Virus record (IMG/VR): IMGVR_UViG_3300035498_000404 | Span: 38,895-102,894 of that record | Length of the DNA stretch: 64,000 nt | Strand: one strand, 5' to 3' | DNA from: a virus | Lineage: Duplodnaviria; Caudoviricetes | Part shown: piece after piece, positions 52 to 25,060 of the stretch | How positions within the stretch are numbered: the stretch's first letter is position 1 | How the letters are laid out: each line of letters begins with the position of its first letter | Translations under genes and position numbers: made by a program | Notes under the pieces: model-generated | Seen by the model: the letters and a program-made list of their open reading frames with translations, nothing else | Databases searched by the model: none | What the model was told of the DNA's origin: nothing

Positions 52-651
52 ATGGCTAAAAAGAGCAGCAAATTAAGCCGCAATTCATACCATACGTTGG
101 GTAATACCAATGCTTATAGAAAACTTACACAAAAGGTACAAGAAAAAGTTGATGAAGCGCAAAAAGAAATTGAAAATGCTCTAACTGATATTGGAGAGTA
201 GACTGTAAAAAAGATAAAAGAATATGTTAAACTTTATTATTACAATGCTTATCCAGAGGGGGACAATTATAATCGACTTGAAGAAAAGGGTGGATTTTTG
301 CATACAATTTCTTACGAAGTAAATGTTTCTAATTTTTCAATTAAGATATATTGTGATTGGAGTTTACTAGCCGTTAGTGATAAACCAGACCCGAAGTTTC
401 CTCACCACTGGGAAAATGGTCAAGCATTTACTTATGGTTTATATGATTATATGATGTATGGTAGTTGGCCTTTTAGCCGTAGTAACCGAGTTATTCAAGC
501 AGGATTTAGAGGCATTGACGAAGATATGACAAAAGAAATTAAAGATTTTCTTGACTGGTATGTTTCTGATTTGGTATCAGCACGATTAGAGAAACTAGGA
601 TTTAATGTTAGTGGACTTAAACATGGTGCTTCTGTCTTGCGGTCTGATTAA
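52..651 (+). CDS. Hypothetical tail-region protein (199 aa), one in-frame TAG read through
   Basis: ATG at 52 is in frame with ORF 298..651. The only interruption is TAG 199-201. Ends TAA just upstream of the tape-measure SD. Confidence 0.7.
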
Positions 652-670
652 TTTTAAGGAGGTGGGTTAA

Positions 671-3600
671 ATGGCTGAAAGTATAATATTTAATATAGGT
701 ATTGGTATTGACGATACTGAAGTAAGACAGGATTTAACAGAAGTTACAAAACAAATACAAGAAGTTTTAAATACAGATTTAAAATTTAATATTAACGCGA
801 ATAATATTGAGGAATTACAACAGCAAGTAGCTAATCTTGGCGGGCAATTAAATATAGTAAGAGACTCTGTAACTGGTCTTGCCACTGGATTTTCTGTAAC
901 GGCAACCTCTATAACTGGGCAACTTGTAAATGTGGCTGGTAGTTTTTCAAATTTAAAAACTAGCGCTGATTCATATGTGGCATCTTTAAGTAGTATGCAC
1001 GACCAAATTTCAGGTCAAACAGGGGAACAAAAGGCAATAGCTCAAATTCAATAGGAGTATATTAGTTTATTACAAAAAGAAACTGACATTAAAGAAAAAC
1101 TAGCTGTTGCAGTTCAAAATCAAGACACTCAACAAGTAAGTTCTTTGGCAAATCAGCTTGATAAAACTTAGACGTTAATGAACTATGATGCAGAACGACT
1201 ACAACAAATACAGGGTATGTCAAATGCTGCAACTACTTTTAACGGTGTTTATGAGCAGATATTTGCAACCACATAGCAATTAGCTAACAGAAATAATGAT
1301 GCAGATGCGTTTTTAGGAACTGATGCTTCTCAAAGAATAATTGATGTTTCTACTAATCTTTCCCAGTTAGATAATACATTACAAGAATATTATTCTCTAA
1401 ATCAACAAGTTTAGAATACTGCTCCGGGAGAATATTGGGATTTATTAGACGCAAAATTAAAACAATTGCAACCAGAATATGATGCTGTTAAAACCAGTAT
1501 GGAATCTTTGGGTGTTGTGTTTGCGAATGGTCAGGCTCAATATACTGGGACAGCAGAAGCAGTTCAACAATTAGTTGAAAGATATAATGAGTTAGAGCAA
1601 CAACAAAAGGAAAACCAAGCTTAGAAAAATCAAGCTGCTACATATAAAGAAATTACAGATGCGGTTAAGGCTTATTATAAAGCGCTAACTGACGTTAAGA
1701 AATCTAATAGCGTAGAAGGCTCTGAAACATACAAAGTATTACAGCAAAATTTAACCGCTGCTGCCAATGCTACTGTAACACTTAATGGGAAAACAACTCA
1801 ATTACAAGATGTATTTTCTGCTCTTGGTATTACTATATCAAATTATGGTTCAAACTTTACTGCTGCATACAGTGGTAAAAGCCAAGAAATCCAAAAGATT
1901 GTTGATTTAATTAATCAACAAAGTCAGGCTTACGCCAAGCTTAATGCTCAAAAAGCAGACCAAGCTTCTGATACTGCATTAATTGAAAGTGCCGTAGCGG
2001 CATATAAAAAGTATAGAGACCAATTAGATGTTGTTTATAAATTAAAGAAAAGTGGGAACACTGACTTTACAAGCAACCTAAAAGAAGAAGAAGAACTCTT
2101 AAAGCAGCTTAAAACTGCGTATGAACAAGAAGAACAAGCTCTTCTTAGTAACGGTCAAGAAGTACAGAAAAATACAACTTATAACCGTGATAAAAACCAA
2201 GTAACTAGAGACTCTATTCAGGCTCAAAAAGAGTTTGATTTAAGTTTAAATACAAATTCGCTACAAAATGCTATTGCCTAGACACTACAATACACTATTA
2301 GCTTGCAGGGCTTAAAGACTGCAATTAAAGAAGTTATAGATACAACTCTTGATTTGAACGAATCAATGACGCAAATTCAGCTTGTTACCCAACAAAATAA
2401 TGATGATGCTAAAGAATTAATTCAATCTTATTCAGAATTAGCTAAAAGTTTGGGTACTACAACTGCTGATATAGCTTCTGCAAGCGTTGAGTGGCTTTTT
2501 ATTAGGTCACTATAAATCCATTTAACTGCGGGAAACCCCTTAGAGATTAACATACTAAAGGACGATAGAAATATACGTTCTGGCGAGAATAATTACCTCG
2601 GTATAGTAAAAACTGTTAATATTGGGCAATCCGCAACCAAGCCTCTAAAATAGAGGAAGGTTCATCGACTATCCCTTGGTTTCTAAAACGAAACAATAGG
2701 AGTACGGCCAATCGTTAAGGTGGGTGAAAATCCCTTAAATGGAAATGATGGATATTTTAAAGATATTTTAAAATTACTTGACAAAAAGTAATTTTTGTGA
2801 TATAATAGAATAAAGATATAGTCAATACTATGTAGAAATATATAGAAAATTCTGTTTACAGAATCTTTTGAAAAGTAACGATTTTCAGAAGTAATATAAT
2901 AGACGGCAGGGCAACAGTATTGAGGAAACTAATGACTTAATTCAAGCGTCTGCAACGCTACAAGTCATTGGTAATATGGAAGCGTCGGATTCCGTAACAG
3001 CATTAACAGCTTGATTTAGGCTGGGCATATAGTAATATATGCAATAATAAATTCTTTTAACTGCGGGAAACCTCTTAGAGATTAACATACTAAAATATAA
3101 TAGGGATATTATATTGGCGAGAATAATTACCTCGGTATAGTAAAAATTGTTAATATTGGACAATCCGCAACTAAGCACCAAGAACTGGTGAAAGCTCAAC
3201 GACCATCCCATAGGTTCTTTTCAGAACAACAGGAGTACGGCCAATCGTTAAGGTGGGTGAAAATCCCTTAAATGGAAATGGAGAATATCCTACTCTTAGG
3301 ATAAAGATATGGTCTTTTCTTATTAGAAATAATAAGGTGTTTATAAACACATATAAGATTAACGACCTTGTATAAAAATTAAAGGCTATCAACGGCTATG
3401 GATTAGAAGCTTCCGACGCAATGCAGATAGTAGACCAATTAACTACACTAGATTTGAAGTTTGCAGCTTCTTCCGGTGATATAGCGACAGCTCAACTATT
3501 AAGGGCTGGGTGTGCAGTAATGTACATAATAATAAATTCTTTTAACTGCGGGAACTTCCTTAGAGATTAACATACTAAAATATGATAGGAATATACATAT

Positions 3601-6600
3601 TGGCGAGAATAATTACCTCGGTATAGTAAAAATTGTTAATATTGGACAATCCGCAACTAAGCACCAAGAACTGGTGAAAGCTCAACGACCATCCCATAGG
3701 TTCTTTTCAGAACAACAGGAGTACGGCCAATCGTTAAGGTGGGTGAAAATCCCTTAAATGGAAATGGAGAATATCCTAAAAATAATTATAAAAGACTTGA
3801 CAAAAAGAAATAAATATGATATAATTACTGTTATAGGATAAAGATATGGTCTTTTCTTATTAGAAATAATAAGGTGTTTGTTTGTATTATGGAGATGAAA
3901 ATGATTATTTCAAAATTTGTAAATATAAGAATGGTTAGTCAAAATATTAAATATTATAGAGATTTGGGGTATGAATTTAATAACGGTGAAACAATTCCTA
4001 TCAAAATTGAAGATATTGGAAATGGAAATCGAGCATCCGTAAAGGTTAAATGTGACTATTGTGGGGATGAATATGAAGCACAATATGCAAATATTATGAA
4101 TGGCAGAAAGATTTTAAACAAAGACGCTTGCAAGAAATGTGGGCATAAAAAGAGAGAAGAAATTTTGTTGCTTTTATACGGAGTAAAAAATCCTATGCAG
4201 TTGCAGGAAATAAAAAATAGGCAACAAGATTCATTGGAAGCTCATTACGGAGTGAGAGTTCCGGCAAAAAATAAAGATATTTCAAAAAAACAAGCAGAAT
4301 CTTTTAAAAAATCTTATGGTATTGGTAGTGATGGATATGACGAGTATCAGACCAAACGAAGAAAAACCTGTATTGATAAATATAGCGTTGACAATGCCTC
4401 GAAATTAGAAGAATTTAAAGATAAAGCTGCGAAAACTTGTTTGGAAAAATATGGTGTAGAGCATCCATGTCAAAATCCAGACATTATGGAGAAATTTATA
4501 GAAACTTGCAATGAAAAATATGGTGTTGATTATTATTTGCTGACAAAGGATAAACAAATAAAAACCACAAAAACCTGTATGGATAAATATGGAGCAATAA
4601 ATATTTCAAAAACTGATTATTGGAAAGAAAAGGTAAATAATTCAGTTATGGAAAGATATGGTACAAAATGGGTCGGAGAATCAAAAGAAATTCAAGATAA
4701 AATAAAGAAAACGAATATGGAAAGATATGGCGTTGAGTGCGTCTTTTCGTTGGAAGAAATTCGTTTAAAGTCAAGAAAAACTATGCTTGAAAAATATGGT
4801 TCAATAATGCCCCAATGCGTTAGTTCTCAACAAAATTATATTCATAGTATATATGGTGGAGAATTAAATAAACAAATTGGAAAATATGTTGCTGACATTT
4901 TATTTACAGATGAACGTATTGATTTTGAATATGACGGTGGAGGACACGATTTAAGTATTAGGCTTGGAGCTATATCTGAAAATAATTTTATAGACAAAGA
5001 AACAATCAGGAATAATTATTTTATAAAAAATGGTTATAAAATTTTTAGAATTATTTCCAAAAAAGATAGATTACCAAACGATTCAATCCTTATCGAAATA
5101 AAAAATAAAGCTTTTGAAGTTTTATTAAATACAGAAAATAATATTTATACTTATAATATAGATAATAACACAGAAGAATACAAACAAATCAATGTGGAAT
5201 AACGACCCACATTAAAAATTTATACTTTCTAAAGTTGCATCTGTGGCCTCACAATCCGGTGTTTCACTGGAAAAACTAGAATCAATTCTGGTTGTCACAG
5301 AAGACCAAACACAGCAATCGGCAGACACCATTAACAAAACAGTGGTGTATAAATCAATTCTAATATTTATGCGAAAATCCAGAGATGGACAACGCTTCGG
5401 AAGGTAAATTACCGCCGACAACGACTGAATGAATTGACCAAATTTATTTTGGATGCAACAGTCTGAACACATAATATAATCGAACAATGAAATATGTGAA
5501 TAGGAGTCATTGGTAATCAGACCAATTAAAGAAGAACTTCTATCGCCTACTATAAAGTAGGTCACAAAAGTAACAGAATGTGGTAATGCTAAATGTTCTT
5601 GGCATGGCACATAGTAATATGTGCAATAATTAATCCCTTTAATTGCGGGAAACCCCTTAGAGATTAACATACTAAAATATAATAGGAATATTATATTGGC
5701 GAAAGTAACTATTTCGGTATAGTAAAAATTGTTAATATTGGGCAATCCGCAGCTAAGTGTTCAGAACGGACAAAAGTTCATCGACTATCCAATAGCTTTC
5801 AAATAAGCAACAGGAGTACGGCCAATTGTTTAGGTGAGTGAGAATCTCTTAAATGGAAATGGGGGACATCCTATTATTTAGGATGAAGATATAGTCAAAA
5901 CTTGTTAGAAATAATAAGAACTTATATTAAAAATATAAATCATTGAAAGAATCTTATTTTTAATATAGGTTGCATAAAAATAACGAACTTATGTTAATTA
6001 ATTGTGGAACAGTATTTTTGCCAGAATGTCGAAAATTGCTGCTGGTAAAGACCTTGAAGACACCGAGGTAACGCTAAATGATGTCGATAAGGTCTTAACC
6101 AAAATGAATATTAGTCTAAAGGATGAACAGGGTCAAATTCGTGACCTTGACGATGTTCTTGACGAAGTTGCAGGTCGTTGGGACACCTTTACGACAAATG
6201 AAAAGAACCAAATTAGTACGGCTATCGCGGGCACACGACAAGCCAACTATTTTAAGGCCGCAATGGCCGACTGGGGAGAAGTTCTTGACGGTACGCAAAT
6301 TGCATTAGACGCAAATGGTACGGCCACAGAGCGTATGGGTATTTATACCGAATCCCTAGGAGGTAAAATTAAGACCTTAAAGGCTACTTGGGAAGAATTT
6401 GTAGCCGATTTAAATTTGGACGATGTTATCTCTAATGTAATTAGTACAGCACAAAATCTATTAGAGATTTTTGATACTATAATAAATAAAAGCGGTGTTT
6501 TAAGTACCGTAATTAAAGGAGTTCTTGTTGCACAAGGACTAAATATTTTATCTGGCGCTGTTGTAAAGGTTCTTGGTACACTAACTGGTAGTGGTGGATT

Positions 6601-9600
6601 ATTAAGCGGCCTTATTAAACTTGCTCAGATAGCCCCTGAACTTTCTGAATTTGCAAGTTCTATAAATAGCGTCGCTGACGCACAAACTGCTTGGGCTTTA
6701 ATTACTGGTGACGGTATTTTAAAAATAATCCCAAATATACTCACTCTACTTGGTGGTTCTGGTGGTCTTGTTGCTATTCTTGGAACTCTTGCTGGTACTA
6801 TTGCGATTGTGGTTGCGGCAGTTGCCGCATTTAAATATGCTTGGGAAAATTGGTTGCCTACGCAAGCAAATGCAAATCGGCAACTAGAAGAAGCACAAGA
6901 AGAATTAGAGAATACCTAGTCAGAACTTAATGATGTAATATCAAAATTAGAAGATGTTCAATCTCAAATTGATGATTTAAATAGTAAAGATACTTTATCT
7001 ATTACAGATAAAGAGCAATTAGATATATTAAAGAAGCAAAGTGAAGAACTTGAAATACAAAAGTCTACACTTGAAGAAATGGAAAGAATCAAGCAGCAAG
7101 GCGTTCTTGATGCCAATATAAATAATCAAAATACCAAGAGTAATTTGTTTAGCTTTAACTTAGAAGATGGCCTAACAATAAATACTGCATATAACAAGAG
7201 CTTAGAAGAGCTTATATCTACATATAAGACATTGCAGATTGTTGTTGATAAAACTGGCGATTCACTTGGAACTTTTGAGATTTATGGTGATGAATTACAA
7301 GACAGATACGATAAAGCTAATGCGACCATAAATCAATATCTCCAAATGGAGCAATCTGGTTTATTAACCACTAAGTATTATACTCAAGCCCAACTTGATT
7401 CTTACCAAGAAGCTTATGATAACGCTATTAATATTCGTAATTAGATTCTTGAAATTTTAAATCCTGAACAATTTAAGAAGCTTAAAATTGAAGAAGCTCT
7501 TGACACAAGTGGTTTCAAGGGTATTGAAACAACAATTAACAACTTAAATATTAAGTTAAAAAATGGCGAAACAACATTTGAAGAATATTCCGAAGCTGTT
7601 CGTGCGGCATTAACAAAATTAGCACAAAACGACGATTTTAAGAATCTTCTTGGTGATATATTTACAGAAGATGAATTAAATGACACAGAAGCTCTCGTAG
7701 AAGAACTTGTTGGGTATCTTGATGTACAAACTAATGCTATTGTTGATGATGTCACTGATGCCCAAAATGAAATTGTCGAATCTTTTGAGGGCTATGCCGA
7801 CGGAATTAAAGAAGTAGAATCTTCTTATGAAACACTAAAAGATGCAGTAGACAGTTATAATAGTAGTGGTACTATTACAGCTAAACAACTAGAAGAATTG
7901 TTGGCACTTGACCAAGATTATTTAAATACTTTAAGTTATGAAAATGGTCAAATTAAGATAAATGGAGAAGCTATTAGTTCTTTAAAAGAAGAACAATTAG
8001 CTCTTTATAAACAACAACTTCTTACCGCTGCTTCTGCTGAAATTTTGGCTCGTGCGCAAGAAGTAAACAATCAAATAGAAGAGGATTCTATTACTGATGC
8101 TTATGAGCTAAGAGAAGCCAATTTCCAATTAAAAAATGGGCATATTGAAGCCGCAACAGGTGCTTCTGTGCAAGCGGTTGCCGAAGCAGATTTACAGACG
8201 CAATTAACTGGTGTTGCTGCTAGTGCTGGACTTACAACTGAGGCAATTCAAGACATTATAGATAAATATACTGCTCTATATGCTTTAGGAGAAAATGTAT
8301 CTGGTTCTGGTTCTTCTTCTAGTAGTAGTTCAACTAACGCTGCTAAAACTGCTTATGAAAATGAAAAAGCCAGATATGAACTGCTTGAAAAAGAAGTAGA
8401 ATTAGAGAAAGACAAATTAGAAGCCCAAAAAGATGGAGTGAAAGCAGAAGAAACTCTGCTTAAAAATAAAAAATCCGAATTAGAGCTTCAAAAACAAATC
8501 AAAGAACAACAACTTGACACTATACAAGATTCCGAGGAAGATATTACTGATTTAATTGAGTATGTCGAAAAGATGCTTAAACAACAGTACGAAGACCTCA
8601 AAACGAATCTTAAAAAGGTAAAAGAGTATGTTACTACTTGGCGTGACGCATTGTCTGATGCAAAAGATAGTTATGACGATATTACGGCTGCTATCGAGAA
8701 GCAAATGAAAGCTCAAAAAGAGCAAAATGACAATGAAAAGGCTCTAAAAGAAAAAGCGGATGCTGTTTCTGACGTTCAGGAACAATTGGCTGCTATTCAG
8801 TATGATACTTCTTCTGATGCTGCTACTAAGCGCGTCGAGTTACTAAAAGAACTTAATGATGCACAAGAGGCACTGACAGAAGAAGCACAAGACCAAGCAT
8901 ATGATTCTGCTCTCGACCAATTAGACGCTGCTCAACAAAAAATTGATGATATTTTCGACTTTATTGACGAAGCGTTGGAAGACGCAGAAGATGCTATTGA
9001 CGATTACGTTGACTATATTTCTAATACTTTAGAATCTGAAGGCAATCTGTATAAAGAGGCGTTGGCAGAAGTTCAATCTGCAATTGACGGTAACAATGAC
9101 GAATTATTGCAAAAGCTTTATAAGTGGAACAGCGCGAAATGAATGCGCTGTATAAATCGGGTTATATGCTGGAACACCCTAAAGACTTTAATACTAAAAA
9201 GTAAAAATTTAAAGTATGTTACAATGGGCAATCAGCAGGGAAGATAAGTTCACCCTCAACGACTATGGGAATATCCCACTAATATATAAGTAATTATATA
9301 TTAGAACCCCGATAAGGCATAAGCCGAATGATATAGTCTGAACTTCCATAGAAATATGGAGAATTGGGCAGAAATGACCCAATATTTTTGTGTTAGTATT
9401 TTAAAAACAAAACCAATTTTATTTTTTAGTATGACACAAAAATTAACAAAATTGATATGGAGACAACATTGCTGAAACCATTACAAAAGCTTGGAATGAT
9501 GCTCTTGACGCTGTTGAAAAATACAAAGATGCAACTGGTGAAACTAATCTGCAAAATATCCGTGAAGGATTACAAATGCAGGATACCACTCTTAGTGCAG

Positions 9601-10730: not shown

Positions 10731-10740
10731 TTAGGACACT

Positions 10741-10774
10741 AGCCCGCTTTGAAAGATAAGCGGGCTTTTATTTT
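10741..10774 (+). terminator. Intrinsic terminator after tape measure gene
   Basis: AGCCCGCTT/AAGCGGGCT stem followed by T-rich tract. Confidence 0.7.
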
Positions 10775-10784
10775 ATAAAGGTGG

Positions 10785-11699
10785 TTGGAGAGTATGCCTG
10801 TAATGGGGTGTCCATTTATTTTTAATGAAATACCTTCCGAGGCATATAACGCCTCTTTAGTATTTTTGGAAGAACAATATACGAAACGTCCTTCTGGTGG
10901 ACAAAAACAATTTACTACGGATAATGTCAGAGGAAATTCAAGAGCAATTCTATTAGATGTTTCTCAAACAGAACCTTTGAGTTTCGGAATTGAAATTGTG
11001 TTTGATGACCCAGTAGATATTCAAACTTTAACACAAGTTAAAAATTGGTTATGTTCTCCTTTAAAATATTGTAAACTTAGAATTTGTGCAGAGGGTTTTG
11101 AAAATTATTATTATAATTGTTATATAAACCTAGATAATGATTTAATTTATAATGGTGGCTATCGTGGAGTTACTGGTACAGTAACTTGTGATGCACCTTG
11201 GGCTTGGGAAAACGAACAAACTATTGATTTAGAAATTGGGACATCGACTGTCCCTGCTGAAAATAGATTTTTAAATTACTCTCAGGACGCAAATCCGATG
11301 AAACCGATTATTTCATTCACTGTGACAGAATCAAATTCAGATTCATTTTTGGCGATTGAAGATGTATTTGAAGATTCTAATGGGAATATTATATACGACA
11401 AGACTACAATATTTGTTTCTTCTAATGCAAAAACATATAAGCAAAAGAATGGAGAAATTGTAGAATATAGTATAACAAATAATTGTTACAATCTTGTAAG
11501 TGGTGAACAAATAACATTTAATAACCAAACGGCGTTACTGACTTCTTCTGTGAATCAACTTTTTAGAATTAATAATTTTAATAAAGTTTTTCTTAGAATC
11601 CCACAAGGAGTAAACAAACTTTATGTGTCTGGATTAAATATATCTAATTTAAAAATGACTTATACTAATGCTAAGAGATTAGGTGGTGGTTGGTATTAA
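10785..11699 (+). CDS. Distal tail (Dit)-like protein
   Basis: Directly after the TMP; motifs VTCDAPWAW and FLRIPQGVNKL typical of siphophage tail-family proteins; start may be ATG 10794. Confidence 0.7.
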   Translation: MESMPVMGCPFIFNEIPSEAYNASLVFLEEQYTKRPSGGQKQFTTDNVRGNSRAILLDVSQTEPLSFGIEIVFDDPVDIQTLTQVKNWLCSPLKYCKLRICAEGFENYYYNCYINLDNDLIYNGGYRGVTGTVTCDAPWAWENEQTIDLEIGTSTVPAENRFLNYSQDANPMKPIISFTVTESNSDSFLAIEDVFEDSNGNIIYDKTTIFVSSNAKTYKQKNGEIVEYSITNNCYNLVSGEQITFNNQTALLTSSVNQLFRINNFNKVFLRIPQGVNKLYVSGLNISNLKMTYTNAKRLGGGWY

Positions 11700-14600: not shown

Positions 14601-15219
14601 CATTTCGGCAGACGGAAGTATGATATTACATTCTCTTACTGTAAATCAGATTACTGCCGACCAAATAAGTGCTGGGGCTATTGAAGCTGATAAAATAGCA
14701 GCCAATGCAATTACTGCCGGAAAAATTTCTACAAATGCTATATATGCGGACAATCTGAGAAAAGATGCAGTGTTTAAATTATATTGGTCTAATTCCAGTG
14801 TACGTGATTGGAGCACAACTAAAATAACAAATTCAGGTATAGACCTCAATAATTTTGATGGGTGCATTGTATTTTGTTCAGATTATTACGATGGAAAATA
14901 TATCGGTTCTAGTTCTGCAATTGGAGTTAAAGACAAAACAACTGCTGCATTCGGAAAAGATTCAAATGGGTGGTATGGTGGTGGCACTATTACACAAAGA
15001 GGATTCACAATGCGTTCTGATGGAATTTATATGGATAATGGATATTATTTTTCTCATTATGTTCATACTGTTCATTCTTTGAATTGGCACGTAACACAGG
15101 CGTTTGGTATATTTGATGTAATAGGTGATATATTAGACACCGCTGCGCATCCTACATGGCAGAAGTCATCTACTGCTTGTGTTCCACAAGCAGTTTACGT
15201 ATTTAGGATGGGGGTTTAA
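11683..15219 (+). CDS. Tail tip/hub (Tal-like) minor structural protein, 1178 aa, one in-frame TAG (12337)
   Basis: ORFs 11683..12339 and 12385..15219 share a frame and are separated only by TAG; position after Dit; C-terminal ITADKI-type repeats. Confidence 0.8.
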
Positions 15220-15222
15220 TAG

Positions 15223-15396
15223 ATGTCTGATTTTAAAAATTGGATAAAATTAGGTGAAAATGACAGAGTGTGTAGTATTTTAACTACATATAAAGATATG
15301 ACGAATTCTGGTTTTATTCAAGTAGAAGACTATCCAGAAGGAAATTATTATTATTATTTATATAAAAATGGAACGTATATATATAGTCCTAAATAA
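15223..15396 (+). CDS. Small tail-associated hypothetical protein (57 aa)
   Basis: ATG..TAA frame filling the gap, GGGGG SD-like sequence upstream. Confidence 0.55.
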   Translation: MSDFKNWIKLGENDRVCSILTTYKDMTNSGFIQVEDYPEGNYYYYLYKNGTYIYSPK

Positions 15397-15422
15397 TTTT
15401 TAAGATTGGAGTGTGCTTAATA

Positions 15423-17207
15423 ATGAATTTAGATAGTGTTCCAATTAAATATGTGTTAGATTCAAATAACACACTTCATTAGATTGATTACGAAACATTA
15501 GCAAATTTACCTAATGGGTTAAAAAATCCATATGAATTAATAATTTTTGGTACTTCTTATGATGGTTCTAAAGAAATATCAATTGAAAAACAAATTGCTT
15601 CTAATGACTTAGTGGGATTTGTAAAGCCAGTGAATGTTTCTTCTGAAATGACAACTCCCGTTGGCATAAATGAACAAGGAAGGCTATTTACGACAAGTCA
15701 AAAAGTTGATTCATTTTTGTCTAAAGATAGCACAAACTCGGTTTAGAATTCTGTGATTACTTAGAATATTTTTAAACTAGAAGATGAATTAGATAATAAA
15801 ATAAGTGAAGAGAGCTTTAATAAAGTTGTTTCTGAAACGAACAACAAAATATAGAATTTACAAAATGATTATTTAAATAAGATTAGTTCCGTATCTTAGA
15901 ATTTAGAAAATTATAAATCAGAGACAAATGAAACAATTGATTTAATACAATAGGATTCCAAAACAAAACCAATATCATTAGTTTTTGAAGATTATAATTC
16001 ATTGTCTAATTGGTTGTCTATTCAGGACAATTTGTCGAAAATTGAATCTGGCGCTACTTTTTATTTGATACAGGGGGATACAGATTACTTTTGGGACGGA
16101 AATACAATAAGAACCATTAAAGGCTCTGGCAATAGTAATTCAAATGGTTTATAGGACTATTTATCTCAAGTTAATCCAACAGGAATTGGTAGTTTTCAAA
16201 TGAACTCTTCTGGCGCTATTGGAAAATATTCTGTTTCTCTTGGATATAATTCGGTAGCTTCTGGAACTTGTTCAACTGCAATCGGTTTAGGAGTAATATC
16301 TTCTTAGAATAACCAATTTGTATGTGGAAAGTATAATATTGAAGATACTGATAACAAATATTTATTTATAGTTGGTAATGGAGCTTCTGATAATAATAAG
16401 AGCAATGCCTTTTCTGTTACTTCTGATGGAAATATAAGTTCGTACTAGGATGTTATAGCATTTTATTCTGATAAATATTATGCGAATGATACATATTGTA
16501 ATTTTACATATAATATTTCTTCATTTAATGGAACGTTAAATATGTCGTGGGATGGATTTGCTCTTGCGGTTTCCGGTGTTTCTGGTGATTATAAATTTGA
16601 ATATACTGGTGAGCATTGGTATTGTTCTTAGGTTGACTTATCATATATTGCAGATGAAACAACACAAGAAATAGGATGGTTTCCAATAAGTATAATTGGC
16701 ATTTCTTTTGTTGATGAAAATGAAGAAGAGATAAACGAAGATACCATATCTTTTTCAAAAGGAGACTATATATTTGTTCATTTTCTTGCTCTCGAAGCTA
16801 TAAGCTTGCGAGAATTGTATAATTATACTCATTTTGGATTAAGTTCTTCTACTGAAAATATTACAAAACTAGAAGAAAATGTCTCTACTTTACAAGAAAA
16901 TTCAGAAAAATATATTTCAGAAATATCTTAGGCTATAAACGATTCTGAAAAAATTAAATATAGTATTAAAAATATAAATGATATAGAATTATCAAATATC
17001 ACATTAAATTCTGTTACCAGTGAAAAAGCTGGTCTAATGTCCTCTACTGATAAAAACAATTTAGAACAATTAATAAAAGATATTGAATCCATAAAAAAAG
17101 AAATTGAATCAATCAAAGAAAGATTAGATAAGCTTGAAAATCCAGATTCAGATAAAGATACTGATTCCGGTGAAGAATCTACTGATAAATCAAATACTAA
17201 TAAATAA
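15423..17207 (+). CDS. Tail fibre/adhesin-like protein (594 aa) with 11 in-frame TAG
   Basis: Manual translation shows no TAA/TGA for 594 codons. YadA-head-like repeats (SVSLGYNSVASG) and a GKYN..IVGNG..SNAF fibre motif; GLMSSTDK motif shared with 25061..26245. Confidence 0.85.
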
Positions 17208-17227
17208 ATAACAAAGGGGCGTTCAAT

Positions 17228-17602
17228 ATGAATGAGAATTTAGATTCTATTATAGAAAAATTAAGCAATCAAATTGAAGAAATTAAAATAGATTTTCAAA
17301 ATAAAATTGAAGACATATATGATGCTTTAAATATAGTAGAAGAAGATTTAGAAAAAAGACCAGCTACATTTGTATTTGAAAATTATAAAGCTATGTGCGA
17401 ATGGTTTTCTATTGAAGAAAATGTAAGAAGTCTTGATATTGGCGCTACCGTATATTTGATTCATGGACATACAAATTACTTTTGGGACGGAGAGATTTTA
17501 AAGAGTATTAAAGACCCTGATTCATACCCATATTATCCTCCGAATTATGTATATAAAACAAAATATGATATTGAAACCATTGAAAATACTGATGAAAATT
17601 GA
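17228..17602 (+). CDS. Hypothetical tail protein, paralogous to an internal domain of 15423..17207
   Basis: FVFENY..W.SI..N...GATVYLI.G.T.YFWDG matches LVFEDY..W.SI..N...GATFYLI.G.T.YFWDG. Confidence 0.7.
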   Translation: MNENLDSIIEKLSNQIEEIKIDFQNKIEDIYDALNIVEEDLEKRPATFVFENYKAMCEWFSIEENVRSLDIGATVYLIHGHTNYFWDGEILKSIKDPDSYPYYPPNYVYKTKYDIETIENTDEN

Positions 17603-17617
17603 TTGTGGTGATTTTTA

Positions 17618-18004
17618 TTGCAGAAAGAAGCAACTTTAATTGCCGCACAACAAATCCCTAAAATGCACATTATATAGGGTGATAGCCTTATGTTTGCTAT
17701 ACAATTCATTGATGCAAACTAGACTATAATAATTCCCAGTGCGTCAGATGAAGTTCAATGGTTTTTATATCCATTTAGAGTTGATTCTGACCCAATATTA
17801 ATGTATTCTAATAAGAATAATTCTGGATATAAAAACAATATATTTGTTGCTGATAATGGAGTAATATATATTAGTATAGATTCTGAAGATACAAAGCTAT
17901 TAGATTCAGAAAAGTATATTCAAATCCCAGTTTTGAAATATAATAAAACTACATATACAAAAGCATATGGCGAAATAAATGTTATAAAAGGAGTTGGTAA
18001 TTAA
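17618..18004 (+). CDS. BppU-N-like baseplate/adaptor protein (128 aa), 2 in-frame TAG
   Basis: TTG start; QIPKMHII*GDS aligns with QIPDIEFISGDT of 19426..19773; TAG at 17675 and 17720. Confidence 0.7.
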
Positions 18005-18522
18005 TGATTAATAAAGACTTTGCGAATACAATAAATTATATCATATTTGGTTAGCAATCAGCCAGCTCTATTTATAACTATTATTATATTGGAATATGTT
18101 CTGAAAAAATAGAAAATGGAATTATTAATTCTGAAATATTTCCACAAGACGGGAAAAGAATAAGAATACCAAATAGTGCGGATTATTTTCATGTTGAATA
18201 TGATAATTCTTTAGGATGTAGCGTCGTAAAAAATGTTAATGCTATTACTTTTAATTTGAATAAATCTACTGATACCAAAATAAACTCAATATTTGTTGCA
18301 ACTTCACAAGACACCAAAGATGCTATTTTGTGGAAAAATCTATCACAAACTAAAACTGTATCAAGTGGAAATAAATTTGTTATATTAGCAAATGCACTTG
18401 AATTTATTTTAGGAGGCCAAGCTTCTTCTGGCACTTCTGGTGGAGAATTAATTGTTGATGATAATGGATATTTAAGAAGCAGTTCATTTTCGGTAACAGA
18501 CAGTGGAGAACTTGTATTGTGA
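18004..18522 (+). CDS. Tail/baseplate protein (172 aa), one in-frame TAG (18052)
   Basis: ATG overlaps the previous stop; in frame with 18256..18522; similar to 18771..19205. Confidence 0.7.
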
Positions 18523-18532
18523 CGGTGTAAAT

Positions 18533-18736
18533 ATGGATAGCAATACAAATGAATATATTATTGGATTACCAGATATTAACATTTCAAATTCAATTATTGG
18601 ATATACTAATAAGAATTATAATATGACTCCGTATAGAATTTTTATACCAGAACTTAATAGACGTGCAACAGGTGCGGCTGATTTAAATTATTATTTTGAT
18701 TTTCAGATAATTGAATCTTTATTATAGGAGAAATAA
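18533..18736 (+). CDS. Small hypothetical protein (TAG at 18725 read through to TAA)
   Basis: ORF track 18503..18727; TAA three codons after the TAG. Confidence 0.45.
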
Positions 18737-18770
18737 CGCAATAATCATTGTATGAAAGGGCGTGATGTGA

Positions 18771-19205
18771 ATGATTAGTTCTTCTCTTGCTAAACAAGTA
18801 AATCAATTGTTATTTGGTGGTAACTCACTAAGCGTTCCGGGGTATTGGTATCTTGGTCTAAGCACCTTTGAAATAGACTCTGACGGAAGAGTAATAGAAC
18901 CAGACCATGTTTCTACTGGTTATTCGCGTGTAAGAATTGCAAATACTACTGATAATTTTGAAACAGGTGTTTATTCTAATCCGACTACGAATAAGATTGT
19001 TTATTCTTAGAATAAAAATAAAATAGCGATTTCCAGTATTACAAAAGGTAGTGCGGTTACAGTTAAAGCTGTATTTATATGTTCTACTCAAACTGGGACT
19101 AATGCAGACTTTTGGATTAATTTAACAAATCCTGTTACAATTCAAGTTGGTAGTACAATGTATATAAATGCTGGCTCATTAAGATTTACTTTAGGTTCTT
19201 TGTAA
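18771..19205 (+). CDS. Tail/baseplate protein (144 aa), one in-frame TAG (19008)
   Basis: YLGLST..EP..GYSRV motif; frame continues past the TAG to TAA 19205. Confidence 0.75.
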
Positions 19206-19217
19206 TGAGGTGGATAT

Positions 19218-19412
19218 ATGAGAGATTTTGAATATACACCTAAATTTACAGAGACTAATATAGGAATTCTCGGTAGAGTTTATCGTGACGGATATTTGTA
19301 TTAGAATACAAAAGATGAACCATTTACAATAAATATCTCTACTTTATATTTAAATTCTTATGTAACTGGCGAACTTGGTATTTGTTTTGGTATGGAAGTT
19401 AGTTTTTCATAA
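19218..19412 (+). CDS. Small hypothetical protein (64 aa), one in-frame TAG (19302)
   Basis: GAGGTG SD; fills the gap up to the next SD. Confidence 0.6.
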
Positions 19413-19425
19413 GGAGGTGTAATTT

Positions 19426-19773
19426 ATGGGCAACTTCGTTTCAAAATATGTTACGCAGATTCCAGATATTGAATTCATCTCTGGTGATACAATTACCATA
19501 CCGTTTAAGTTCACAGATGCTAATGGTACTGTGATTCAAAGTTATACACTTGTATGGAAATTATGTCCATATAATGATACAAAAAATACGGTAATAACAA
19601 AAACATTAACTGTTACAGGTGGTTCTGCTAATGTTGTTTTATCTTCTGAAGATACTAAAAAATTAAAAGGAAAATATGTGCAGCAGCCTGTATTAAGATA
19701 TACAAGTGGTGGGACTACGACAGACTATATTCGTGCTTACGGATATATTAATGTTATTGATAGTATAAATTAA
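19426..19773 (+). CDS. BppU-N-like baseplate/adaptor protein
   Basis: AAGGAGG SD; FISGDT motif; beta-rich. Confidence 0.65.
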   Translation: MGNFVSKYVTQIPDIEFISGDTITIPFKFTDANGTVIQSYTLVWKLCPYNDTKNTVITKTLTVTGGSANVVLSSEDTKKLKGKYVQQPVLRYTSGGTTTDYIRAYGYINVIDSIN

Positions 19774-19808
19774 TTTGAAAATTATTGAGACCCAAAGGTG
19801 GGATTTTT

Positions 19809-20003
19809 ATGTTTAATAATGACGAATATTCTGACATATTAAAAATTATTGAAATGCTAAACAATAATACTAATGAACAATTAGATAATAAGATTAGTAA
19901 ATTTGATTTTGAGTACGCTGTTTCTATTTTAGAATTAAATAATTTAAAGCTAGAAAAGAGAATAAAAGCACTAGAATCATTGTTAGACGTAAAAAGTAAA
20001 TAA
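19809..20003 (+). CDS. Small coiled-coil hypothetical protein
   Basis: ORF 19785..20003; likely ATG at 19809. Confidence 0.5.
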   Translation: MFNNDEYSDILKIIEMLNNNTNEQLDNKISKFDFEYAVSILELNNLKLEKRIKALESLLDVKSK

Positions 20004-20453
20004 TTTAAGAAAGATAAAAACTAAGATAGATTGAAAATAATTTAAATAGTTAAACAATTAATAAATCTATTTTGGCAAAAGCATTCTATTTTTATATAAA
20101 AACAATTGCGCTCTTATTTTTAGAATTACTAAATAATAAGAGATAATGGACTCTATGAAAGCGAAACCCTATGCCCCAGCAAAAATATCAACAGCGAACC
20201 TATACCACTAAATTAGCGACATATCCCAAGTTTTAAATGGGTATTGTTTTGTCTAGGTATAACAGCTATTATTTTAAATTTTGATACAATGGAGAGCAAA
20301 TATCCTTTCAAATAAACCATATGCCAAAAATTAAGTTAATAACCGAATATTAATTTACTAACAAAACAAATTATAAAGGAATAAGATTTTATGAATACAA
20401 TTAACCTATTTAAAATGATTAAAGATATAAATAATTTAGTGGGAGGTTGCTAA

Positions 20454-21629
20454 ATGAAAACTACCAATCCAATGAATTATAATAATATCGGATTAGGATG
20501 GAATAATGGTGGGGGGGGGGGTAAAACCCTTTCGGATTGTTCCGTTGGCAGCACAGTTAAGTTAAAAATAAATGGCGTTAATACAGCATTTATTGTCATT
20601 CAACAAGGAAATCCAGATTCGGATGTATACGATGATACTTGTAATGGAACTTGGCTTTTAATGAATAACTGCATGGAAATTCGTGCTCTTGCTTCTGATG
20701 GGGAAGATACTGGATATTATCCTAGTGAAATTGATACCTATTTGAAAGAATATTATAAAAAATATTTCCCTTCTGATATTCAAAATTTCATATTGCCAGC
20801 TAGAGTTCCTTATACCACATACCAAGATGATAAAACTTCTGTTGTTTCTAAATCGGCAATGTCTTCCGATTATTATACTGGTTTATTTTTACTTAGCGGA
20901 GAAGAAGTTGGGTTTGAGTCTACTGACGATGATTATACTGCCGAAGGAGAACAACTTCCAGACGAAGGTAGTTGTCTAAGATATTTCGCAAGTGGCAATA
21001 GAAGTAATCGTAAGGCAACTTATGGCGGAGAAAATACATAGTGGTGGCTTCGTTCCAAGACTGTATCTAAAACATATCTTTTTATTGATGCTGATGGACT
21101 AAGAAATGACGAATACTCCGAAAAAGAAAAAGGTATCAGGCCAGCGATTATTTTAAATTCGGCATTAAATGTTGATAGTAATGGAAATATAAAAGTACCA
21201 GATATTAAAGAGTGGCAAAAAAATATTTTGTTGTCTGCGCATCCAATTGGAAGTTATTATTGGAGTAATAACAGTACAAATCCTATGACTCTTTTTGGTG
21301 GAATATGGGAACAAATAATTGACAAATTTGTTTATGCGGCGGGGAATAAAGCTGTTGGTGAAACAGGCGGCGAAGAGGAACACACACTTACTGTGAGCGA
21401 GATGCCGAGTCATTATCATAGTAGGGTTTACAATACGAATGGAACTCAATATATACTTACTGGAAATAGTACCGGTAGTGCAAGTAATGGAGCGATGGTG
21501 AAAAATAACACCGATAATACTTCCTCTTCATATAGAGGATATGTACAGACCAATAGTTCTGGCGGCAGCCAGCCCCATAATAATATGCCTCCATATATTG
21601 TTGCTTACTGTTGGTGTAGAGTTGCTTAA
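20454..21629 (+). CDS. Receptor-binding-like fusion (391 aa): DUF6273-like lectin domain plus gp10/collar-like C-terminus; one TAG (21039)
   Basis: LFLLSGEE..*WWLRS..GIRPAI, then HPIGSYYW..GGEEEHTLTVSEMPSH..HNNMPPY; both ORFs share a frame. Confidence 0.8.
20511..20521 (+). repeat. G11 homopolymer in the 5' end of the gene
   Basis: ggt GGGGGGGGGGG taaa in an AT-rich genome. Confidence 0.9.
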
Positions 21630-21753
21630 AAGACTTTATAATGTGAATTTTTAAAGACAGATAGATAATAAATATTGAAAAATAAATAGGGATAAACATC
21701 CCTTATTAAATATAATTTTTATAAAATAAACTATAAAGGGGTGTTTTAAAAAA

Positions 21754-23964
21754 TTGGCTGGAAAATATATCTTTGAAATTCAAGAAAGAACAATTGTTCC
21801 TGCTATAACAGATTAGGTTGCTGTTTATGACGATAACCTATCTCGTTATATTACATTTAAAATACCAGAAGTTATAGACGGAATTGATATAATTGATAAA
21901 TTAATTATCATCCGTTATGTTAATGCTCTCGGTCAATTTGGTCAATTCTATTCGCAAGGTAGAGAGACTATTACTGAGGACGATGAAACATACGTATTAT
22001 TCGATTGGGTTATTGAATCAAAAGTTACTGCCGCAAGTGGTTATGTAACATATGACGTATCTGTTTATGATTCTAACTTTGATGGAATTAATACGGCAAG
22101 TGATATGTATATCTTGCATACACTTCCGACAAACTTAAAAGTTGAAAAAGGACTTCTGGAAGTTAGTCTTGAAGATGAAGACTACAATATGCTTTCTGAG
22201 CTTATTGACCAATTTAATGAGATAATTACACAACATTATCTTGAAGTCAAAAAATCAGAAGAAAACTCTAAGGCTTCCGAAGAGGCCGCTGCTTTAAGTG
22301 AATCTAATGCAAAAGCAAGTGAAAATGCTGCTGCTGAAAGCGAATCTAATGCGGCGAGTAGCGAGAGTGCTGCCTCAAAGAGTGCAACTGATTCTGCCAA
22401 TAGTGCAACAGCAAGTGCTAATAGCGCTACTGATTCTAAGAATAGTGCTAGTGCTGCCTTGAGTAGTCAAAATGCAGCTAAGACCTCTGAAACAAACGCA
22501 AAGAATAGCGAAACTAATGCTAAAACTTCGGAAACCAATTCAAAGACTTCTGAAACAAACGCAAAAAACTCAGAAACTAACGCTAAGTCTAGTGAAACTA
22601 AGGCGGCAACTTCTGAAAGTAATGCGAAAACTTCTGAAAGTAATGCGAAAACTTCTGAAAGTAATGCGAAAACTTCTGAAAGTAATGCTGCCGATTCCGC
22701 AAGTAATGCTGCTGATTCTGCAAGCGCTGCTGCTACAAGCGCAGGGAACGCAAAGACCTCTGAAACTAATGCTAAAAATTCAGAAACAAACGCCAAGACC
22801 AGTGAAACAAATGCAGGAAGTAGCGCTTCCGCTGCTTCTACAAGTGCAGGAAATGCTTCTAGTAGTGCCAATGCGGCTTCTAAGAGTGCTTCCGCTGCTT
22901 CTACTAGCGAATCTAATGCGTCAACTTATGCTTCTAACGCTTCTACTTCCGCATCAAATGCTTCGACGTTTGCAAATACTGCTTCGGCAAAGGCTACCGA
23001 TGCCTCCAATTCTGCTTCTGCTGCCTCTACAAGTGCTGGCGAAGCAGCTTCTAGTGCGTCCGCTGCAAAAACCAGCGAAGATAATGCCAAAACAAGCGAA
23101 GATAATGCAAAGAAGTCAGAAGAAAATGCAGCTACATCAGAATCAAATGCTTCTGATAGTGAAACCAATGCCGCGACAAGTGCTACAACTGCGTCGAATA
23201 AAGCAAGTGACGCTGCTGCTTCTGCAACTAATGCTAAAAATTCTGAAACCAATGCTGCCACAAGTAAGAATGACGCGGCAACATATGCGTCAAATGCTTC
23301 TACAAGCGCAAGTGAAGCACAACAAAGTAATACAAACGCAGAAACAAGTGCAAATAGAGCTGCCGATAAAGCAAGTGAAGCCGCCAATAGTGCAACTGCT
23401 GCCGCAAAATCTGCTGCTGATGCTTTAGAATACTTGAATCAAGTTAAAACTGTGAGTAGCGGAGCGCAAGGTTATTATGAAACACCGGAAAAACTAAAAG
23501 AAAGCGTTCCAGATGGCACTACTGGCTATTGGGCTATTGTAGGCTCTACCGATACAATTTGGGTTTGGGACGATGAAACCTCCGACTGGAAAGATAGTCA
23601 TGATATGACTAAATTTACAGAATATTATACTATCACTCAAATTGACAGTAAATTAAAACAGGTACAGACAGATATTGATACAGCTAAGACAGAAACAAAA
23701 TCGGTTTCTTATACAATTACTGTTCCTGCTAGTGGATGGACTGGAAGCTCCGCCCCGTATAGCAACACAGTCATTGTTGATGGTATTACCGCCGACACAG
23801 TTCTAAGTGATATTAGTCTTGCAAGTTCTAGTATCGGCGTGGCCTCTGCTGAAGCTGCCGCTCAAACTTGGTCGTATCTTGATACAAGTGCCGGAAGGGT
23901 CACTTTTTATAGTAGCACTATCCCCACTGCTGACTTTACAATAGTAGCAAGGGAGGTTAAGTAA
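21754..23964 (+). CDS. Long tail fibre with Stf-like Ser/Ala/Asn repeats (736 aa), one TAG (21814)
   Basis: TTG after AAAGGGG; N-terminal DNLSRYITFKIP..DGID..IRYVNA is in frame with 22105..23964; many SETNAK heptads. Confidence 0.8.
22608..22688 (+). repeat. 21-bp tandem repeat (~3.9 copies) encoding TSESNAK
   Basis: AACTTCTGAAAGTAATGCGAA repeated. Confidence 0.9.
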
Positions 23965-23966
23965 TA

Positions 23967-24653: not shown

Positions 24654-24657
24654 TTAA

Positions 24658-25041: not shown

Positions 25042-25060
25042 AATTTAAAAGGGTGATTAT

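What the first reader, a model, noticed from the sequence alone, without database searches (positions are those of the whole stretch)
52..21816. Amber (TAG) codon reassigned, probably to Gln, in structural genes only
Seen: about 29 in-frame TAGs in 11 plus-strand genes, never accompanied by in-frame TAA/TGA; read-through produces tightly packed genes. Internal decoding: VDSFLSKDSTNSV*NSVI (TAG 15744) aligns with VDASLSSSSTNAIQNKAV in 24658..25041, so TAG sits opposite Q. The minus-strand genes examined have no internal TAG and all but one end in TAA/TGA. Established: code-15 gut phages exist and recoding is concentrated in late genes. Inference: a translational switch gating virion synthesis. 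No suppressor tRNA, release factor or synthetase lies in this window.
Basis: partly seen in the sequence, partly recalled or inferred. Interest (0 to 1): 0.8.

Follow-up and report, generated by a model that had tools for sequence, protein, structure and literature searches.

The report
Phage late genes read TAG as glutamine
A roughly 103-kb gut phage writes many of its head and tail genes with the stop codon TAG standing for glutamine; this trick is already documented in gut phages, so it is a clean new example and not a new phenomenon.

Summary
Reading TAG as sense joins the plus-strand fragments at 52..21629 into 11 tightly packed genes with 29 in-frame TAGs. A 30th TAG (21814) lies in the N-terminus of the tail-fibre gene.

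TAG = Gln is well supported. Against a 96-98% identical phage contig, 12 sites have TAG in only one genome, and the partner codon is CAA (6), CAG (4), GAG (1) or AAT (1). Domains and homologues run across the TAGs, and third-position substitutions dominate downstream of them.

"Structural genes only" is roughly right:
- TAG sense codons are confined to the plus-strand late block, which also holds TnpB and a RecU-like gene.
- The distal fibre/DGR/endolysin/holin module and the minus-strand replication block (9,252 codons) have no internal TAG.
- TAG is almost never a terminator.

The genome is estimated 97% complete. I found no tRNA-CUA, release factor or GlnRS in it. Published surveys detect suppressor tRNAs in only about 40% of TAG-recoded phages, so this absence is not unusual. 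More distant relatives use the standard code.

Verdict: a new member of the known code-15 phage kind. The decoding agent is unresolved. The scan had already noted this recoding on the same genome from a neighbouring window.

The parts
52..651 (+). Late gene, 199 aa, 1 in-frame TAG (199)
   Evidence: The standard-code relative MT835481 aligns across the TAG.
671..2515 (+). First exon of the tape measure gene, 614 aa open frame, 6 TAGs (1052, 1169, 1274, 1412, 1622, 2279). It ends at the first group I intron.
   Evidence: Four of its TAGs are CAA (2), GAG or AAT in G001, and three of its CAA codons are TAG there.
6002..9142 (+). Last large exon of the tape measure gene, 2 TAGs (6917, 7442)
   Evidence: The PHROG tape-measure match covers residues 30-735 and so spans both TAGs.
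11668..15219 (+). Minor tail protein (YOMG_N domain). TAG 12337 is internal. TAG 11680 probably lies upstream of the true GTG start at 11683.
   Evidence: TAG 12337 is CAA in G001.
15411..17207 (+). Tail-fibre-like protein with YadA-head repeats, 598 aa, 11 TAGs
   Evidence: A 594-aa read-through translation is already present in the protein collection (P0001).
17618..19412 (+). Five small, tightly packed late genes (17618-18004, 18004-18522, 18503-18736, 18771-19205, 19218-19412) with 6 TAGs
   Evidence: TAG 18052 is CAG in G001, and CAG 18704 is TAG in G001. The Pfam Gp80 domain spans TAG 19008.
20454..21629 (+). Baseplate/tail protein (DUF6273 + Gp10_C), TAG 21039
   Evidence: Pfam DUF6273 (residues 64-235) and the PHROG hits span residue 196, the TAG.
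21754..23964 (+). Tail fibre gene. TAG 21814 is in its N-terminal extension, and the rest is TAG-free.
22105..31794 (+). TAG-free part of the late block: distal fibres, DGR (variable region 27774-27894, template 28040-28160, reverse transcriptase 28279-29379), two endolysins (29880-30506, 30523-31425) and a holin (31438-31794)
   Evidence: No internal TAG in about 2,850 codons, p = 3e-5 against the tail block.
31857..63829 (-). Replication, nucleotide and RNA-repair block written to read the same in both codes: no internal TAG, and stops are TAA 23, TGA 7, TAG 1
51420..51942 (-). tRNA cluster: Arg(UCU), an odd 113-nt tRNA-shaped RNA (51600-51712) with a 39-nt insert in the anticodon arm, and Ser(GCU). 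None has a CUA anticodon in a proper loop.

Best explanation
In this roughly 103-kb siphovirus-like phage, TAG is a sense codon for glutamine (NCBI code 15) in the plus-strand late block. The phage has a tape measure, Dit, and a DnaE-type polymerase whose nearest named relatives are Bacillus and Clostridioides phages. The late block holds the head, tail and associated genes and runs from about 21.8 kb upstream of the window to window position 21816.

The early, replication and RNA-repair genes on the minus strand, and the distal fibre/DGR/lysis module, contain no TAG sense codons. TAG is almost never a terminator anywhere in the genome. Those genes therefore read the same under the standard code and under code 15, while full-length virion proteins need efficient amber suppression.

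What is shown: the TAGs lie inside translated, selected frames, and they are evolutionarily interchangeable with CAA and CAG.

What is inferred: decoding is by a glutamine-accepting amber suppressor tRNA working in competition with host RF1, which would make virion assembly depend on that factor. The suppressor is not recognisable in the assembled genome. It could lie in the unassembled ~3%, be non-canonical, or be supplied in trans.
For: 1. Reading TAG as sense merges fragments into 11-12 tightly packed genes with no in-frame TAA or TGA.

2. The comparison genome is G001 (IMG/VR contig, 72 kb, 96-98% identical). It shares 31 in-frame TAGs. At the 12 sites where only one genome has TAG, the partner codon is CAA x6, CAG x4, GAG x1, AAT x1. 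The changes run in both directions, and no site swaps with TAA or TGA. The six TAG<->CAA swaps need two base changes, so a synonymous route through CAG best explains them.

3. Downstream of each gene's first TAG, substitutions by codon position are 157 / 89 / 370, with 294 synonymous against 199 non-synonymous codon changes. This indicates the frames are still under coding selection past the TAG.

4. In an alignment of 13 tape-measure homologues, Gln is 23% at TAG columns. Background is 8.8%, and genuine Gln columns show 21% (binomial p = 6e-4).

5. In the syntenic standard-code relative MT835481, 4 of the 21 TAG columns that align to a residue are Gln, against a background Gln frequency of about 4% measured in the other standard-code relatives.

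6. Pfam and PHROG domains span TAGs: tape measure, DUF6273, Gp80, TnpB and phrog_3314.

7. Distribution: 27 TAGs in 5,844 codons of the tail block and 13 in 6,393 of the head block. There are no internal TAGs in the 9,252 minus-strand codons or in the ~2,850 codons of the fibre/DGR/lysis module. Only one gene ends in TAG.

8. The base after TAG is a purine in 83% of cases and T in 7%, against 66% and 21% after CAA. On my own knowledge of amber suppression context effects, this suggests selection for suppression in competition with RF1.

9. The pattern matches published code-15 phages (bioRxiv 10.1101/2021.08.26.457843; PMC10607447; PMC9523058).
Against: - No tRNA with a CUA anticodon was found by ARAGORN with or without introns at relaxed thresholds, by Rfam, or by my own cloverleaf scan.
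- No RF-1 family protein, class-Ic synthetase or tRNA-splicing endonuclease was found. CheckV rates the genome 97% complete.
- There is no peptide-level evidence.
- In very distant relatives (about 21% identity) the three alignable TAG columns were E, Y and K. In MT835481, N and E are as frequent as Q at TAG columns.
- The lysis cassette is not recoded. This does not fit the published emphasis on recoding as a lysis timer.
Confidence: 0.88

Rival explanations
1. There is no dedicated suppressor. The phage disables or out-competes host RF1 late in infection, and host near-cognate tRNA-Gln(CUG) reads UAG through a first-position G-U pair. TAG is then an inefficient Gln codon that throttles late proteins.
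For: - No phage suppressor tRNA, RF or synthetase was found in a genome estimated 97% complete.
- TAG is exchanged with CAG and CAA.
- The portal and the unannotated head-block genes tested have no TAG.
- On my own knowledge, near-cognate insertion of Gln at UAG is known in RF1-deficient E. coli.
Against: One gene carries 11 TAGs and the tape measure carries 8. Any per-codon efficiency well below 1 would leave almost no full-length product. No RF1 inhibitor was identified. Other code-15 phages that have been examined do carry tRNA-CUA (PMC10607447, PMC6784885).
Confidence: 0.08
2. The odd 113-nt tRNA-shaped RNA (51600-51712, minus strand) is processed into, or itself acts as, the amber suppressor.
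For: - It scores 50 bits against the Rfam tRNA model and has a full acceptor stem, D arm and T arm, discriminator G and an encoded CCA.
- Its insert contains the triplet CUA.
- It is conserved in G001, with one change that keeps a G-U pair.
- The phage encodes an RNA ligase and a Pnkp-like kinase/phosphatase.
- Enigmatic tRNA introns are known in TAG-recoded Lak phages (PMC6784885).

Against: No splice choice gives a 7-nt loop with U33-CUA-R37 on a 5-bp stem (my reading). ARAGORN's best call is anticodon AUC with a non-canonical intron position. No splicing endonuclease was found. Earlier scan notes read this RNA as the Y-RNA-like partner of the neighbouring Ro60-like DUF2828/vWA protein, and I confirmed that protein's domains.
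Confidence: 0.04
3. The TAGs are real stops. The genes are fragmented or decaying, or TAG encodes a residue other than Gln, or the host itself uses code 15.
For: In distant relatives the TAG columns are often N, E, S or K.
Against: - 31 TAGs are conserved between two independent assemblies, and coding-type substitution patterns continue downstream of them.
- 10 of 12 swaps are to Gln codons, and none is to AAG, TTG, TCG, TGG or TAY.
- A host that used code 15 would not explain 9,252 early-gene codons without a single TAG.
Confidence: 0.02

Closest known systems
TAG-recoded (code 15) gut phages surveyed by Borges et al. [quoted passage not shown]
   Same: - TAG aligns with Gln.
- Recoding sits in late structural modules while the replication genes are standard-code compatible.
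- TAG stops are depleted in close standard-code relatives.
- A suppressor tRNA was detectable in only 40% of TAG-recoded genomes, so its absence here is not unusual.
- Group I intron endonucleases are also reported in the Agate clade.
   Different: Here the lysis cassette (two endolysins and a holin) has no TAG at all, whereas that study found lysis-related genes preferentially recoded in crAss-like and Agate phages. I did not test which clade this phage belongs to (no terminase tree).
phAss-1 / proposed Phassvirus (PMC10607447)
   Same: A gut siphovirus-type phage with a long tape measure. TAG interrupts terL, the tape measure, the portal and fibre genes, and it is read as Gln. No dedicated aminoacyl-tRNA synthetase.
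   Different: phAss-1 is 136 kb and carries three tRNA-Sup-CTA genes among its 36 tRNAs. This phage has about 8 tRNA-like genes and no CUA anticodon. There is no detectable nucleotide similarity to any GenBank phage except a 206-nt patch.
crAss-like phages with proteomic proof of code 15 (PMC9523058)
   Same: The same reassignment (TAG to Gln).
   Different: A different virus order (podovirus-like Crassvirales on Bacteroidota). Peptide evidence exists there and not here.
Standard-code relatives of this phage: MT835481.1 (human faeces, DnaE 56% identical) and IMG/VR genomes G002, G003 and G005 (82-85 kb, DnaE 42-46% identical)
   Same: Syntenic late genes, a DnaE-type polymerase and low GC content.
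   Different: They gain nothing from reading TAG as sense. They use TAG as a stop in 2 of 69 genes (MT835481.1) and 6-7 of about 75 (the IMG/VR genomes). Recoding is therefore a recent, derived state in this lineage.

Membership tests
Code-15 (TAG to Gln) stop-codon-recoded phage | In-frame TAGs inside conserved genes, with homology continuing across them and no other in-frame stops | tested here: met
Code-15 (TAG to Gln) stop-codon-recoded phage | TAG positions correspond to glutamine in relatives | tested here: met
   10 of 12 variable TAG sites are CAA or CAG in G001. Gln is 23% at TAG columns against 8.8% background. 4 of 21 residue-aligned TAG columns are Gln in standard-code MT835481.
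Code-15 (TAG to Gln) stop-codon-recoded phage | TAG is abandoned as a terminator | tested here: met
   Only one confident gene (50340-50945) ends in TAG. Relatives use TAG as a stop in 2 of 69 to 7 of 75 genes.
Code-15 (TAG to Gln) stop-codon-recoded phage | Recoding is concentrated in late (structural and lysis) genes, with early genes standard-compatible | tested here: met
   Met for the head and tail genes and for the early genes. Not met for the lysis genes, which have no TAG.
Code-15 (TAG to Gln) stop-codon-recoded phage | Phage-encoded suppressor tRNA(CUA). This is common but not universal: 40% of TAG-recoded genomes in Borges et al. | tested here: not met
Code-15 (TAG to Gln) stop-codon-recoded phage | Phage-encoded RF2 or GlnRS (a rare accessory) | tested here: not met
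   PF00472 and PF00749 searches of the whole genome were negative, and their controls were positive.
Code-15 (TAG to Gln) stop-codon-recoded phage | Peptides with Gln at TAG positions | not testable with these tools
   There are no proteomic data. An RNA run shows only that the late genes are present in RNA contigs and are spliced.

The most novel reading that the evidence does not exclude
This phage achieves efficient amber-to-glutamine decoding without any canonical phage-encoded suppressor tRNA, release factor or synthetase. It would do so through a non-canonical RNA or by reprogramming host tRNA or RF1, perhaps using its large RNA-repair and RNA-modification gene set. The switch would gate virion assembly and not lysis, because the lysis cassette is written in the standard code.
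Probability: 0.15. Interest if true: 0.65.

Novelty: new member of a known kind. Interest (0 to 1): 0.3.

Why it matters
It adds a well-documented code-15 case in a DnaE-encoding, Bacillota-type siphovirus lineage whose slightly more distant relatives still use the standard code. Together with a 96-98% identical sister genome, it shows TAG and CAA/CAG codons turning over in both directions. This pair is therefore useful for studying how recoding arises.

Practically, the genome must be annotated with table 15, or a third of its late genes fall apart. The lack of any recognisable suppressor, together with a standard-code lysis cassette, makes it a good test case for the open question of how the roughly 60% of recoded phages with no detectable suppressor tRNA decode TAG.

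Tried and rejected
Their Gln residues could themselves be TAG-encoded. I relied instead on G001 and MT835481 DNA.
- **The search for related loci with the alignment** failed because it had no conserved stretch.
- **Pattern scans for relatives of the odd tRNA** found only unrelated tRNAs or G001.
- **Loci around PAPS-reductase homologues** were not true relatives and held no suppressor tRNA.
- **Regions around the polymerase of relatives** held no tRNA-CUA.
- **tblastn against distant standard-code genomes** gave only three alignable TAG columns at about 21% identity (E, Y, K), which is uninformative.
- **Prophage and host search** with the portal protein in bacterial genomes found nothing.
- **Two metagenome scans for the contig ends** found nothing, so the ~3% possibly missing could not be inspected.
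- **RNA run X1** covers the region thinly. No listed difference falls on a TAG codon; the one long listed piece that spans a TAG (19008) shows it unchanged.
- **The 'ACAGCAA' handle motif** was not enriched in the window in a simple pattern search.
- **Coding density** cannot decide the question, because reading TAA as sense also raises it.
- **In-frame TAGs listed in minus-strand ORFs** are all upstream of the real start, or in spurious antisense ORFs.
Full report
**Observation.** Under table 11 the plus strand between 52 and 21,629 is a string of short ORFs. With TAG read as sense they fuse into 11 ORFs carrying 29 in-frame TAGs and no in-frame TAA or TGA. The fused genes are tightly packed, with gaps of 35 nt or less from 17228 to 20003.

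Two of the 29 are ambiguous. TAG 11680 lies 3 nt before an alternative GTG start and aligns with a stop in a relative. TAG 18725 is the third-last codon of its ORF. A further real TAG (21814) sits in a 96-codon open N-terminal extension of the fibre gene 21754-23964. This extension translates to a plausible fibre N-terminal domain, and the chance of such an open frame is about 2e-4.

Coding density rises from 0.811 to 0.895 when TAG is read as sense. Reading TAA as sense also gives 0.871 in this AT-rich genome, so density alone is weak evidence.

**What the genes are.** The window is the right-hand 64 kb of a single 102,894-bp virus contig, which CheckV rates 97% complete and linear. PHROG and Pfam annotation gives:

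- 671-2515 and 6002-9142: a tape measure protein.
- 10785-11699: Dit.
- 11668-15219: a YOMG-like minor tail protein.
- 15411-17207: a YadA-head-repeat fibre, with 11 TAGs.
- 18771-19205: a Gp80-like fibre protein.
- 20454-21629: a DUF6273/Gp10_C baseplate protein.

Upstream of the window, the same plus-strand block holds the portal and other head genes, a TnpB, and a RecU-like gene. Some of these also carry in-frame TAGs that fall inside their PHROG or Pfam matches.

The minus strand (31857-63829) encodes a DnaE-type polymerase, a primase-helicase, an exonuclease, several methyltransferases, thymidylate synthase and an RNA-repair set. The polymerase's nearest GenBank matches are an unannotated human-faecal phage (MT835481.1, 56% identical), then a Clostridioides phage and large Bacillus siphoviruses. 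This suggests a Bacillota host.

**Is TAG translated, and as what?** The strongest evidence comes from a sister genome, IMG/VR contig G001. It is 72 kb and aligns to genome positions 26,305-100,178 at 96-98% identity.

- The two genomes share 31 in-frame TAGs.
- At 12 sites TAG is present in only one genome. The partner codon is CAA six times, CAG four times, and GAG and AAT once each, with changes in both directions.
- One of the 12 sites lies in a doubtful ORF (49896-50327).
- None of the other one-step neighbours of TAG (AAG, TTG, TCG, TGG, TAY) appears, and no site swaps with TAA or TGA.
- The six two-step TAG<->CAA swaps are what synonymous drift through CAG would give.

Downstream of each gene's first TAG, substitutions fall 157 / 89 / 370 on codon positions 1 / 2 / 3, with 294 synonymous against 199 non-synonymous changes. 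The frames therefore remain under coding selection beyond the TAGs.

A full-library phmmer search with the first tape-measure exon found two kinds of hit. Some were short table-11 fragments that stop exactly at the TAGs. Others were full-length homologues at 30-39% identity that run straight through them. In the alignment, Gln makes up 23% of residues at TAG columns. Background is 8.8%, and genuine Gln columns show 21% (p = 6e-4). Those homologues could themselves be recoded.

As an independent check I fetched MT835481. It is syntenic and clearly uses the standard code: density is 0.900 under table 11 against 0.903 with TAG as sense. There, 4 of the 21 TAG columns that align to a residue are Gln, and the rest are mostly N, E and S. 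For comparison, Gln makes up about 4% of aligned residues in the other standard-code relatives. This is what a Gln column looks like at 25-49% identity.

**Where TAG is used and where it is not.**

| Block | Internal TAGs | Codons | TAG share of Gln-type codons |
|---|---|---|---|
| Tail block (window 52-21629) | 27 | 5,844 | 9% |
| Head block (upstream of window) | 13 | 6,393 | 6% |
| Fibre/DGR/lysis module (22105-31794) | 0 | ~2,850 | 0 |
| Minus-strand block | 0 | 9,252 | 0 |
| The two other early blocks | 0 | — | 0 |

All TAGs that the ORF finder lists in the last two rows lie upstream of the real start or in spurious antisense ORFs. Fisher's test of the tail block against the minus-strand block gives p = 7e-12, and against the fibre/DGR/lysis module p = 3e-5.

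Across the genome only one confident gene (50340-50945) ends in TAG.

"Structural genes only" is therefore approximately right but needs two corrections. The recoded set is the late block, including TnpB and the RecU-like gene. Many structural genes are not recoded: the portal, Dit, the distal fibres and the DGR target, along with both endolysins and the holin. Part of the TAG-free module (22-28 kb) has 40% GC against about 31% elsewhere and may be a recent import. The lysis genes, however, have native GC content and are still TAG-free.

**How TAG is decoded.** I searched the whole genome for a suppressor tRNA. ARAGORN found Asp, Thr, Leu(UAG), Ser(UGA), Arg(UCU) and Ser(GCU). Rfam added a weak Pro(UGG)-like tRNA and a 113-nt tRNA-shaped RNA at 51600-51712. 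None of the following produced a credible CUA-anticodon tRNA: relaxed and intron-tolerant ARAGORN runs, or my own scan for U33-CUA-R37 loops with a T arm and an acceptor stem. Searches for RF-1, class-Ic synthetase and tRNA-splicing endonuclease domains were negative, with positive controls.

The odd RNA has a complete acceptor stem, D arm and T arm, discriminator G and an encoded CCA. Its anticodon arm carries a 39-nt insert (40 nt in G001). The insert folds into a hairpin, GCCGU-CUAUUAG-GCGGU, followed by a further stretch that includes ACAGCAA. I could find no splice choice that gives a canonical loop with CUA.

Earlier notes of this scan read it as a Y-RNA-like partner of the nearby Ro60-like protein. 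I confirmed that 54587-56044 is a DUF2828/DUF7788/vWA protein. I put its odds of being the suppressor at about 4%.

The contig ends carry a 126-nt inverted repeat with a sigma-70-like promoter, which is probably where the assembly broke. Two metagenome scans for the ends found nothing, so a tRNA in the missing few percent cannot be excluded.

The base after TAG is a purine in 83% of 41 cases and T in 7%, against 66% and 21% after CAA. On my own knowledge of amber-suppression context effects, this weakly suggests selection for suppression in competition with RF1.

**Comparison with what is known.** Borges et al. (bioRxiv 10.1101/2021.08.26.457843) report the following:

- TAG-to-Gln recoding occurs in many gut phage clades.
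- It concentrates in structural and lysis genes, while replication genes are standard-compatible.
- TAG stops are depleted before recoding arises.
- Suppressor tRNAs were detected in only 40% of TAG-recoded genomes.

PMC10607447 describes a siphovirus-type group (phAss-1) with TAG in terL, the tape measure and fibre genes, plus three tRNA-Sup-CTA genes. PMC9523058 gives proteomic proof for crAss-like phages. PMC6784885 reports enigmatic tRNA introns in TAG-recoded Lak phages.

This genome fits that picture, with two differences: the lysis cassette is not recoded, and no decoding factor is recognisable. Complete relatives at 42-46% polymerase identity (G002, G003, G005; 82-85 kb with direct terminal repeats) use the standard code, with 6-7 TAG stops among about 75 genes. 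MT835481 has only 2 of 69. The recoding is therefore recent in this lineage and follows the published route.

**Expression.** One animal-gut metatranscriptome run holds a related strain at low depth. Its contigs cover several late genes, including one across TAG 19008. One contig shows a spliced joint in the tape measure gene, from 5332 to 6005 with nine letters between. This shows transcription and splicing but says nothing about decoding.

**Verdict.** The pattern matches the known late-gene recoding strategy. It is a new member of a known kind, with an unresolved decoding agent.

Noticed in passing
window 2467-5918 (+): Rfam finds four full-length group I introns (2467-2845, 3003-3336, 3460-3873, 5591-5918) between the two large tape-measure ORFs, with a homing-endonuclease ORF at 3874-5202. 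Homologues continue ...EWL|RQG... exactly where the first exon frame breaks. G001 lacks the first intron (window 2498-2903) and the endonuclease. An RNA contig joins 5332 to 6005 with 9 letters between.
   Followed up: partly
window 26775-29379 (+): A diversity-generating retroelement. The reverse transcriptase is at 28279-29379 (PHROG E = 1e-117), the template repeat at 28040-28160, and the variable repeat at 27774-27894 at the C-terminus of tail protein 26775-27908. Of 22 mismatches, 18 are at template adenines.
   Followed up: partly
window 22000-28000: A GC-rich island (0.40-0.415 against about 0.31 in neighbouring late genes). It covers the distal fibre genes and the DGR target and is completely free of TAG. 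It may be a recently imported host-range module.
   Followed up: no
window 51600-51712 (-): A 113-nt tRNA-shaped RNA (Rfam tRNA, 50 bits) with a 39-nt insert in the anticodon arm and an encoded CCA. Default ARAGORN misses it. It is conserved in G001 with one extra A and a C>U change that keeps a G-U pair.
   Followed up: partly
window 54587-63829 (-): An RNA-repair-like gene set: a Ro60-like DUF2828/DUF7788/vWA protein (54587-56044), PhoH (57332-58591), a kinase + HD Pnkp-like protein (58618-59532), an RlaP-like nucleotidyltransferase (60895-61701) and an RNA ligase (62492-63829).
   Followed up: no
window 52781-60831 (-) and 37484-39759, 46046-48311 (-): Possible DNA-modification genes: an adenylosuccinate-synthetase homologue that hits the PHROG family named for PurZ-type enzymes (59545-60831), a class-V aminotransferase (56136-57314), a PAPS-reductase-like protein (52781-53896), and at least five DNA methyltransferase paralogues.
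   Followed up: no
genome 75-200 and 102769-102894 (window 63875-64000): The last 126 nt of the contig are the reverse complement (97.6%) of positions 75-200 at its start. Each copy carries a TTGACA-17-TAGAAT promoter-like site. This is probably where the assembly broke.
   Followed up: partly
L113:4023-4117, L118:2816-2908, L119:2747-2839 (relatives): Standard-code relatives carry a 93-95-nt tRNA with a long variable arm and a conserved UAU anticodon. That is an unusual pairing of a class-II-type body with an Ile-type (AUA-reading) anticodon.
   Followed up: no
genome 14406-14474 (L001, +): A weak extra tRNA-like hit (31.6 bits) at the head of the Asp-Thr-Leu-Ser tRNA cluster. It has a UGG (Pro) anticodon loop and a degenerate T arm.
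   Followed up: no
41 in-frame TAGs, genome-wide late block: The base following TAG is A in 54% and G in 29% of cases, and T in only 7%. After CAA the figures are 35%, 31% and 21%. AAT is the commonest next codon (11 of 41).
   Followed up: partly
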